Part shown: positions 25,674 through 26,339 of the stretch, piece after piece
Layout: each line of letters starts with the position of its first letter
Position numbering within the stretch: the first letter of the stretch is position 1
Origin: Octopus vulgaris
Lineage: Eukaryota
DNA: 64,000 bases
Assembly (NCBI GenBank): GCA_951406725.2
Contig: OX597820.1
Coordinates: 102,920,001 to 102,984,000 of the forward strand
Direction: 5' to 3'
The notes under the pieces: generated by a model
The model's input: only the letters and a program-made list of their open reading frames with translations
What the model was told of the DNA's origin: nothing
The model's database searches: none
Translations under genes and position numbers: made by a program

Positions 25674-25796
25674 TTAGAGTTAGGTACTAAAAATTCCGGG
25701 TGAGTACTTGATAACTGTAAGCACCTGTATATGCCAGTTAGTGGTGTAGGTGATAGGGTATATTTATCAAAAGAAAAACAGGATGCAAAGGAATTA

Positions 25797-25883
25797 GCGG
25801 TACATATGTTTCTGGCTTTATTGGACAGTTTATATCAATGCATAATTGATGTGACATGTATGTCAATAGCCTTCTTCAGCCGC
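25797..25883 (-). ncRNA. Type I hammerhead ribozyme (left-arm copy)
   Basis: Exact mirror of 26098-26184. Confidence 0.8.
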
Positions 25884-26097
25884 GCACAATTACCACACCA
25901 AAGATATGTATTACATTATAGCAGGTTTGAGAAGTTTGGGAAAAAAACGAGTTTCGTTGGGGATGCAAATCCTCATAGTCGTATATAGCAAAGCGAGACA
26001 CCAAAACAAAACGTCCATCCCCAACGAAACTCGTTTTTTTCTCAAACTTCTCAAACCTGCTATAATGTAATACATATCTTTGGTGTGGTAATTGTGC

Positions 26098-26184
26098 GCG
26101 GCTGAAGAAGGCTATTGACATACATGTTACATCAATTATGCATTGATATAAACTGTCCAATAAAGCCAGAAACATATGTACCGC
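26098..26184 (+). ncRNA. Type I hammerhead ribozyme with palindromic stem III
   Basis: gcgg-CTGAAGA-a-ggct.att.gaca..tgtc.aat..agcc-a-GAAA-catatg-TA-ccgc. Predicted GUA cleavage after 26180. Confidence 0.8.
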
Positions 26185-26339
26185 TAATTCCTTTGTATCT
26201 ATCTATTTATCTATCTTTCTGTTTATCCATCTGTCTGCCTGTATGTATGTCTGTCTATTTATCTATCTATCTATCCTTTCCCCATTCTTTACTATTTTTT
26301 CTCCTCTTTCGTGATTGTCCTGAAACCTATCTCTCTGTC

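What the first reader, a model, noticed from the sequence alone, without database searches (positions are those of the whole stretch)
25681..26199. Second, sequence-unrelated fold-back cassette with the same twin-hammerhead architecture (cassette 2)
Seen: 184-bp arms (2 mismatches) around a 50-bp spacer. Each arm holds an outward-facing HHR, gcgg-CTGAAGA-A-[long stem II]-A-GAAA-catatg-TA-ccgc. One arm has a ~100-bp tail, and there is (TCTA)n on both flanks. I see no sequence similarity to cassette 1, yet it has the same layout: short spacer, HHR 60-80 nt from it, one-sided tail, microsatellite target. Inference: two families converge on the same product, which points to a shared mechanism such as cDNA fold-back or self-priming during PLE reverse transcription. 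The palindromic stem III (ACATATGT) is the type proposed to work as a dimeric hammerhead.
Basis: partly seen in the sequence, partly recalled or inferred. Interest (0 to 1): 0.82.

Follow-up and report, generated by a model that had tools for sequence, protein, structure and literature searches.

The report
Folded-back Penelope retrotransposon end
A real 520-base DNA palindrome with a hammerhead-ribozyme motif in each arm sits in a simple repeat; it is most likely the cut-short end of a Penelope-type jumping gene joined head-to-head to an inverted copy of itself, a layout already described for this class, so it is ordinary apart from a junction clue to how the inversion likely forms.

Summary
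The palindrome is real in the sequence: arms of 180 bp (25786-25965 / 26016-26195, 2 mismatches), a 50-bp spacer, a type I hammerhead motif in each arm, a 105-bp one-sided tail, (TATC)n flanks and a candidate 14-bp target duplication. It is one copy of a dispersed, high-copy family (non-inverted copies at 8.6 and 11.8 kb; 818-1183 contigs per laid run in three large runs). The spacer is ordinary family sequence of the tailed copy. The layout (5'-truncated copy, inverted truncated copy, tail at one end, opposite-strand hammerheads 100-700 bp apart, microsatellite target) is the published Penelope-like element (PLE) insertion pattern, and self-priming was already proposed for it. The window holds a decayed coding PLE (42-48 kb) with the same head-to-head hammerheads. 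New here: the junction has a 6-nt microhomology inside a likely natural hairpin, and both arms share two alleles rare in the family, which favours cDNA snap-back over two independent cDNAs. The twin hammerheads cannot dimerise in cis: they are on opposite strands and are predicted to be buried in the duplex. The autonomous partner was not found, raw reads across the junction were not seen, and Rfam does not score the hammerhead.

The parts
25599..25676 (.). Left (TATC)n target array; last 14 bp (25663-25676) are the left copy of a candidate target-site duplication
   Evidence: the duplicated 14-mer includes the only TATT variant unit of the left array
25677..25680 (.). 4 bases between the candidate duplication and the family 3' end (likely filler)
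   Evidence: sequence; the 8.6-kb copy aligns to 25681 and then enters (TA)n
25681..25785 (-). One-sided tail = 3'-most part of the main copy (105 nt); other copies end at about 25759 or at 25683-25691, next to (TA)n
   Evidence: loose ends (14 contigs of X1 at 25759; X5 at 25683, 25689, 25691)
25786..25965 (-). Left arm: pLTR-like part of the main, 5'-truncated copy
25797..25883 (-). Type I hammerhead motif, predicted cleavage after A25801; palindromic stem III; an unpaired A on each side of stem II
   Evidence: 1 of 35 core/stem positions variable in the family against 16 of 85 others, Fisher p 0.016 (on the table)
25960..25965 (+). GGGATG, inferred annealing site for the folded-back cDNA end
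   Evidence: sequence; loose end behind 26011
25966..26015 (-). 50-bp spacer: family sequence collinear with the left arm (inferred fold-back loop)
   Evidence: contigs run from the left arm into the spacer in X1, X3 and X4 (table 8, records 7, 8, 15, 16, 23, 24)
26016..26021 (+). CATCCC: 6-nt microhomology, both the family's own continuation and the start of the inverted arm
   Evidence: 6 contigs of X1, agreement 0.93; chance 6e-5 at a fixed place
26016..26195 (+). Right arm: inverted copy of 25786-25965, without tail, ending 15 nt after the predicted cleavage site
26098..26184 (+). Second copy of the hammerhead motif, predicted cleavage after A26180
26196..26275 (.). Right, decayed (TATC)n array; 26196-26209 is the right copy of the candidate duplication
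8553..8885 (+). Older family member without inverted arm, between (TA)n arrays; hammerhead core at 8680, stem III CACGTG (palindrome kept by a double change), U16.1 lost
   Evidence: 77% over 144 nt; no inverted partner in 6501-11000
11763..11836 (-). Tail-only family piece (74 nt, 86%) between two (TA)n arrays

Best explanation
This is a 520-bp palindrome made of one copy of a dispersed hammerhead-bearing repeat joined head-to-head to an inverted partial copy of itself inside a (TATC)n array, most likely the 5'-truncated end (pLTR plus tail) of a Penelope-like retrotransposon whose cDNA likely folded back and primed its own second strand. Steps: (1, inferred from PLE biochemistry, PMC11167929) a PLE GIY-YIG endonuclease cuts the AT-rich microsatellite and the target end primes reverse transcription at the tail end (25681); (2, shown as structure) the copy stops after about 340 nt, at 26021; (3, junction shown, event inferred) its 3' end CATCCC pairs with GGGATG 50 nt back, within a likely natural hairpin of the element; (4, inferred) synthesis runs back over the hammerhead for about 175 nt; (5, inferred) the end is joined to the other side of the target at a 3-nt ATC match, leaving a 14-bp duplication. 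The second hammerhead is a by-product; the insert is predicted to be dead on arrival.
For: Family with a common 3' end and variable 5' extent: 8.6-kb and 11.8-kb copies; 1183, 925, 818 and 51 contigs laid in 4 of 4 runs. Spacer collinear with the tailed arm (table 8). Hammerhead core and stems conserved and of the PLE type: stem I of 4 bp, long helix II, extra nucleotide after A9, palindromic stem III (PMC4209133). Same layout with coding sequence in the window: opposite-strand hammerhead-like motifs at 42170(-) and 42471(+) ahead of an RT + GIY-YIG ORF at 43315-48053, whose relatives are about 750-aa proteins with PF00078, PF26215 and PF01541; head-to-head GIY-YIG pieces at 1-1010. Published pattern: inverted 5'-truncated copy, one-sided tail, microsatellite bias (PMC8557442), short target duplications and self-priming (PMC3846280). 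For fold-back in particular: 6-nt microhomology plus a further 5-nt match in register (chance 6e-5 and 5e-4); both arms carry the window's allele at 25793 and 25905, where at most 0.15-0.7% and 0.2-0.5% of family depth has it in X1, X3 and X4; tail on the copy that owns the spacer.
Against: No autonomous partner found: 0 of 855 tblastn matches from 120 PLE proteins touch the cassette and it matches none of the window's PLE ORF flanks tested, so PLE membership rests on architecture and ribozyme type. Rfam does not score the motif. The tail (105 nt, or about 78 nt from the recurrent end at 25759) is longer than the published 30-40 bp, and the inverted arm stops 27 nt short of that recurrent end. 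Only 1 opposite-strand joint among 2977 contigs laid, of unclear orientation, so fold-back within this 340-nt stretch is not shown to be common (power is low). The microhomology rests on 6 contigs of one run that also differ from the window by a 6-nt indel just before it. The cDNA end is not predicted to fold back stably by itself (minimum-energy DNA structure lacks the pairing, z +0.22). Shared rare alleles could also come from two RNAs of one source locus, from later conversion between arms, or from the runs being other individuals or species.
Confidence: 0.75

Rival explanations
1. Same PLE origin, but two cDNAs: both strands of the cut target prime reverse transcription (a PLE dimer on two RNAs, one starting at the tail end, one further in), and the two truncated cDNAs anneal head-to-head through CATCCC/GGGATG.
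For: Anolis Poseidon protein cleaves and extends both strands, starts at two sites that bound the tail and is predicted to be a dimer (PMC11167929). Predicts the same microhomology, and fits the ATC match at the outer end of the right arm.
Against: Both arms share two alleles rare in the family, which needs both RNAs from one minor source; the right arm does not end at the recurrent 25759 end.
Confidence: 0.25
2. A non-autonomous, retrozyme-like or MITE-like element that moves as the whole palindromic unit.
For: No coding sequence in the cassette; high copy number; animal retrozymes are PLE-derived (bioRxiv 10.64898/2026.07.22.740005).
Against: Family contigs continue past the spacer into sequence unlike the right arm; the two other window copies are not palindromic; no joint that goes back, as a short tandem monomer would give (table 5); a read-through RNA is predicted to bury the ribozyme.
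Confidence: 0.08
3. Assembly or library artefact (fold-back chimera).
For: No listed run holds half of the cassette's 42 words (best 0.43) and no listed contig spans the junction; inverted PLE structures are known to trouble assemblies (PMC8557442).
Against: The palindrome stops at the element's edge with different flanks on each side, the arms differ at 2 sites (at 25853 the right arm has the family allele), there is a candidate target duplication, and older, diverged palindromes of the same kind lie in the window.
Confidence: 0.04
4. Inversion arose after insertion by a host repair or replication template switch at the hairpin, independent of retrotransposition.
For: Microhomology-primed fold-back is a general repair outcome (PMC11724301, search listing and start of abstract only).
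Against: Several unrelated PLE families in 64 kb show the head-to-head form, and the candidate target duplication encloses both arms.
Confidence: 0.06

Closest known systems
EN+ Penelope-like elements with inverted pLTR (Penelope/Poseidon, Neptune, Nematis; Adineta Pen2a; PMC8557442 Fig. 2, PMC3846280)
   Same: 5'-truncated copy with an inverted truncated copy at its 5' end, head-to-head; tail on one end; short target duplication; simple-repeat target; hammerhead in the pLTR
   Different: No ORF left between the arms (50-bp spacer); tail 78-105 nt rather than 30-40; autonomous partner and clade not identified
PLE minimal/dimeric type I hammerheads, e.g. Schistosoma Cercyon (PMC4209133)
   Same: Short helix I, long helix II, extra nucleotide after A9, palindromic helix III; dual motifs 100-700 bp apart on opposite strands (here 223 bp)
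   Different: An additional A before GAAA (A-A instead of the usual G10.1-C11.1 closure if read without bulges); helix II region of 60 nt; activity untested
Metazoan non-LTR retrozymes (bioRxiv 10.64898/2026.07.22.740005; PMC7229834 listing only)
   Same: Non-coding, type I hammerhead, dispersed, likely PLE-dependent
   Different: Retrozymes are head-to-tail tandems; this is head-to-head and no tandem joint was seen
L1 twin-priming 5' inversions (recalled, no call)
   Same: 5'-truncated retrocopy with an inverted segment and junction microhomology
   Different: In twin priming the inverted part is upstream sequence not present in the 3' part; here the same 180 nt are present twice

Membership tests
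EN+ Penelope-like element | ORF with PLE reverse transcriptase and GIY-YIG endonuclease linked to this pLTR | tested here: inconclusive
   No coding remnant in the cassette (0 of 855 matches; loose hits E 0.004-0.04 not in a terminal position); expected for a short truncated copy; no genome held to find the full element
EN+ Penelope-like element | Hammerhead motif in the terminal repeat | tested here: met
   descriptor, fold and family conservation; not scored by Rfam
EN+ Penelope-like element | Dispersed copies with shared 3' end and 5' truncation | tested here: met
   three window copies; loose ends with (TA)n at the 3' end
EN+ Penelope-like element | Inverted truncated copy at the 5' end, head-to-head | tested here: met
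EN+ Penelope-like element | One-sided tail of 30-40 bp | tested here: inconclusive
   one-sided tail present, but 105 nt (78 nt from the recurrent end at 25759)
EN+ Penelope-like element | Simple-repeat target and short target duplication | tested here: met
   3 of 3 window copies lie in (TA)n or (TATC)n; 14-bp duplication is a candidate only, being inside a microsatellite
EN+ Penelope-like element | Partial tandem (pLTR-ORF-pLTR) in full-length copies | not testable with these tools
   no genome
Type I hammerhead ribozyme | Conserved core CUGANGA, GAAA, UH and stems I-III | tested here: met
Type I hammerhead ribozyme | G10.1-C11.1 pair directly next to the core | tested here: not met
   an unpaired A on each side of the GGCU/AGCC stem; the 3' A is the majority allele, with C in a large minority (25813); the 42-kb family has the same extra A
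Type I hammerhead ribozyme | Self-cleavage | not testable with these tools
   bench assay needed
Non-LTR retrozyme | Head-to-tail tandem units each with a hammerhead | tested here: not met
   inverted arrangement; no such tandem array here and no go-back joint; a unit longer than 340 nt is not excluded
Non-LTR retrozyme | Circular RNA expression | not testable with these tools
   only contigs were available, no run on record as RNA

The most novel reading that the evidence does not exclude
This octopus family carries a built-in hairpin upstream of its hammerhead that stalls the reverse transcriptase and programmes snap-back of the cDNA, so that 500-bp twin-hammerhead palindromes are a defined integration product; with thousands of copies, junction microhomology and arm identity would settle how PLEs make their second strand (cDNA snap-back rather than antisense self-priming or two cDNAs).
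Probability: 0.2. Interest if true: 0.55.

Novelty: new member of a known kind. Interest (0 to 1): 0.24.

Why it matters
The structure itself is expected for Penelope-like elements, so it changes nothing in classification. Its value is as data: how PLEs form tandem/inverted repeats and tails is named as an open task in PMC8557442, and young, minimal palindromes like this one record the junction. A genome rich in them allows a direct computational test between cDNA snap-back, antisense self-priming and two-cDNA annealing. Practical side: such inserts mimic MITEs or microRNA hairpins in annotation (Rfam's best rows here are sub-threshold microRNA models) and would give 180-bp double-stranded RNA if read through.

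Tried and rejected
Whole genome: not held, so the genome-wide enrichment test and the search for the autonomous element could not be run. Rfam: no hammerhead row in 100 rows for the window or 8 rows for the cassette; microRNA rows are below gathering scores and reflect the palindrome. A 30-letter tail motif found 0 matches in metagenome, viral and prokaryotic genome contigs. Sequencing runs: 20 of 24 listed rows hold part of the cassette, none half of it; no RNA holder listed; run X5 is only guessed to be RNA and says nothing on expression. Depth falls from the tail towards the spacer, as 5' truncation would give, but summed contig depth is not copy number and divergence also lowers it, so it is not used as evidence. 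Link to the neighbouring PLE ORF at 22.5-24.7 kb: no DNA similarity, rejected as partner. Cassette 1 homology: rejected. Cis-dimer of the twin hammerheads: rejected (opposite strands). PDB search with the 43.8-kb RT piece gave nothing useful; Pfam on short ORF pieces gave only weak GIY-YIG hits (E 0.011 and 0.099). Earlier findings: none for this place or sequence; one unrelated fungal PLE note, not used. Searches for a prior description of this octopus family or of cDNA fold-back in PLEs gave only the papers cited; Repbase and Dfam are not searchable here and no supplements were read, so the family may already be catalogued.

Full report
Observation. The inverted repeat is at 25782-25965 / 26016-26199 with a 50-nt spacer. 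Direct comparison gives 3 mismatches over 184 nt, one of them in the outer four bases that on the right are already (TATC)n, so the arms are 180 nt with 2 mismatches. A strict type I hammerhead descriptor hit 3 places in the window, 26102(+), 25879(-) and 19649(+, cassette 1), and none in 30 of 30 shuffles. Each motif folds alone into the three-way junction, though no more stably than shuffles. Rfam does not recognise it. A 14-bp sequence ending the left microsatellite (25663-25676) is repeated at the start of the right one (26196-26209) and includes the left array's only variant unit, a candidate target duplication. Cassettes 1 and 2 are unrelated in sequence (42 of 500 shuffles score as well).

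Host. The closest relatives by identity of an RT piece in the window are Octopus proteins (72% and 69%), so the host is inferred to be an octopus. No genome is held.

It is one copy of a dispersed family. Two more copies lie in the window: 8553-8885 (77% over 144 nt, hammerhead kept with stem III changed from CATATG to CACGTG, still palindromic; no inverted partner) and a tail-only piece at 11763-11836, both between (TA)n arrays. Twenty of 24 listed runs, from four coded organisms and ten studies, hold part of the cassette, none half of it. I laid 4 of the 24 runs on the tail, left arm and spacer (25676-26015): 1183, 925, 818 and 51 contigs. Of the 40 variant rows shown (4 hidden), 17 places fall in 25786-25905; 1 of 35 hammerhead core and stem positions varies against 16 of 85 others (Fisher p 0.016). 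Copies end next to (TA)n at about 25759 (14 contigs of X1) and at 25683-25691 (X5). Contigs run from the left arm into the spacer in three runs, so the spacer belongs to the tailed copy, which reads on the minus strand: spacer, 86 nt, hammerhead, tail.

The junction. Six contigs of X1 continue past the spacer: after a 6-nt indel they read through CATCCC, the first six bases of the right arm, then differ for seven bases, then match ACTCG in register (24 loose-end rows shown, 210 hidden). So the family's own upstream sequence is a broken inverted repeat of GGGATG (25960-25965) and CGAGT (25948-25952): a likely natural hairpin, with the inversion starting exactly at its inner stem. Chance values are 6e-5 and 5e-4 at fixed places. 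Both arms also carry the window's letter at 25793 and 25905, where over 99% of family depth in X1, X3 and X4 has another letter. Against this: the evidence is from one run; an isolated cDNA end is not predicted to form this pairing; and only one opposite-strand joint (25813/25985, orientation unclear) appeared among 2977 contigs, though contigs drop rare variants and break about 30 letters from such junctions.

Same layout with coding sequence. After masking microsatellites the window shows further near inverted repeats. At 41964-42700 two hammerhead-like motifs face outward at 42170(-) and 42471(+) (palindromic CCCGGG stem III, extra A before GAAA) ahead of a decayed ORF that aligns in order to residues 3-731 of 750-aa RT/GIY-YIG proteins at 43315-44435 and 47063-48053, split by a LINE. 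At 1-1010 two truncated GIY-YIG pieces meet head-to-head. With a looser descriptor (7 hits against 0.43 per shuffle, 40 shuffles) plus the 8680 motif, and leaving out one hit without stem I at 4517, 3 of 4 hammerhead-bearing loci in the window are head-to-head pairs; this is too few for an enrichment test. None of the window's PLE ORFs is the partner of cassette 2 by the comparisons made.

What is in print. PMC8557442 (12 of 18 matched passages): PLE insertions are 5'-truncated, often with an inverted 5'-truncated copy at the 5' end, a 30-40-bp tail at one end and microsatellite bias; the mechanism is listed as open. PMC4209133 (parts 1-2 of 4): PLE hammerheads with short helix I, long helix II, a nucleotide between 9 and 10.1 and palindromic helix III, thought to act as dimers, weak in vitro; dual motifs 100-700 bp apart on opposite strands in Schistosoma. 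PMC3846280 (11 passages): inverted pLTRs with 8-10-bp duplications and head-to-head palindromic junctions read as self-priming, on an antisense template. PMC11167929 (parts 1-2 of 4): both target strands cut and extended, two RT start sites bounding the tail, hammerhead not needed for insertion in vitro. Also seen: bioRxiv 10.64898/2026.07.22.740005 (part 1 of 5 and passages), PMC3088659, PMC8969392, PMC13282606 and PMC12602865 (passages); the passages of the octopus repeat paper count 31 recently active Penelope-like families and have no hit for palindrome or hairpin. No supplements were read.

Mechanism. Best: target-primed reverse transcription from the tail end (inferred), stop after about 340 nt at the hairpin (structure shown, cause inferred), snap-back of the cDNA 3' end over a 50-nt loop (inferred from the microhomology), copying back across the hammerhead, and joining to the far side of the target at an ATC match. 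First-strand cDNA is antisense, so this gives the head-to-head form without an antisense transcript. The main rival, two cDNAs annealing through the same six bases, fits the in vitro two-strand activity and is separated only by arm identity and tail side. I put PLE origin at about 0.9 and snap-back at about 0.65 of the mechanisms. The twin hammerheads have no joint function here: a transcript through the cassette carries one in sense, and both strands fold into the long duplex with stem I probability 0.0. The stem III palindrome can pair with itself (8 bp, -7.0 kcal/mol), which suits a head-to-tail dimer in the parent element, untested.

Verdict. Real, well explained, a new member of a known kind; interest 0.24. 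The junction detail is a usable lead for a genome-wide test of PLE second-strand synthesis.

Noticed in passing
window 41964-48100: Decayed near-full-length coding PLE: inverted plus direct pLTR with opposite-strand hammerhead-like motifs (42170-, 42471+), RT and GIY-YIG pieces, interrupted by (TTAG)n and a LINE at about 44.4-47.05 kb
   Followed up: partly
window 1-1010: Head-to-head pair of 5'-truncated PLE GIY-YIG ends (81-85% arms), junction near 400, with a CxxC linker motif on the + copy and an internal deletion at about 605
   Followed up: partly
window 22500-24700: Another decayed PLE ORF (RT to GIY-YIG, + strand), ending at (TA)n 24817, 900 bp from cassette 2 but unrelated to it in DNA
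   Followed up: partly
window 49127-49901: Older palindrome (76%, 91-nt gap) with partial tandem copies, related to the 42-kb pLTR family; hammerhead remnants
   Followed up: partly
window 19160-19842: Cassette 1: its inner junction abuts a small natural hairpin (19520-19539); left-arm hammerhead has a stem I mismatch next to the core; stem III loop is not palindromic; tail about 115 nt
   Followed up: partly
window 11763-11836: Tail-only insertion between two (TA)n arrays, spanning roughly the interval between the family's two recurrent 3' ends; may be a product of the two RT start sites
   Followed up: partly
window 44528-45796 (-): 423-aa open LINE RT frame (Pfam RVT_1, E 2.6e-26) inserted in the PLE
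   Followed up: no
window 58683-59529 and 54869-55648: Two further high-identity inverted pairs (69 nt at 94%, 60 nt at 98%) about 700 bp apart, not examined
   Followed up: no
window 48220-48612: AT-rich imperfect palindrome (166-nt arms, 77%) just after the PLE's GIY-YIG end; low complexity
   Followed up: no
window 21365-21540, 26958-27169, 34847-35050 and others: Many copies of a SINE-like repeat typical of octopus genomes (family name recalled, not tested)
   Followed up: no
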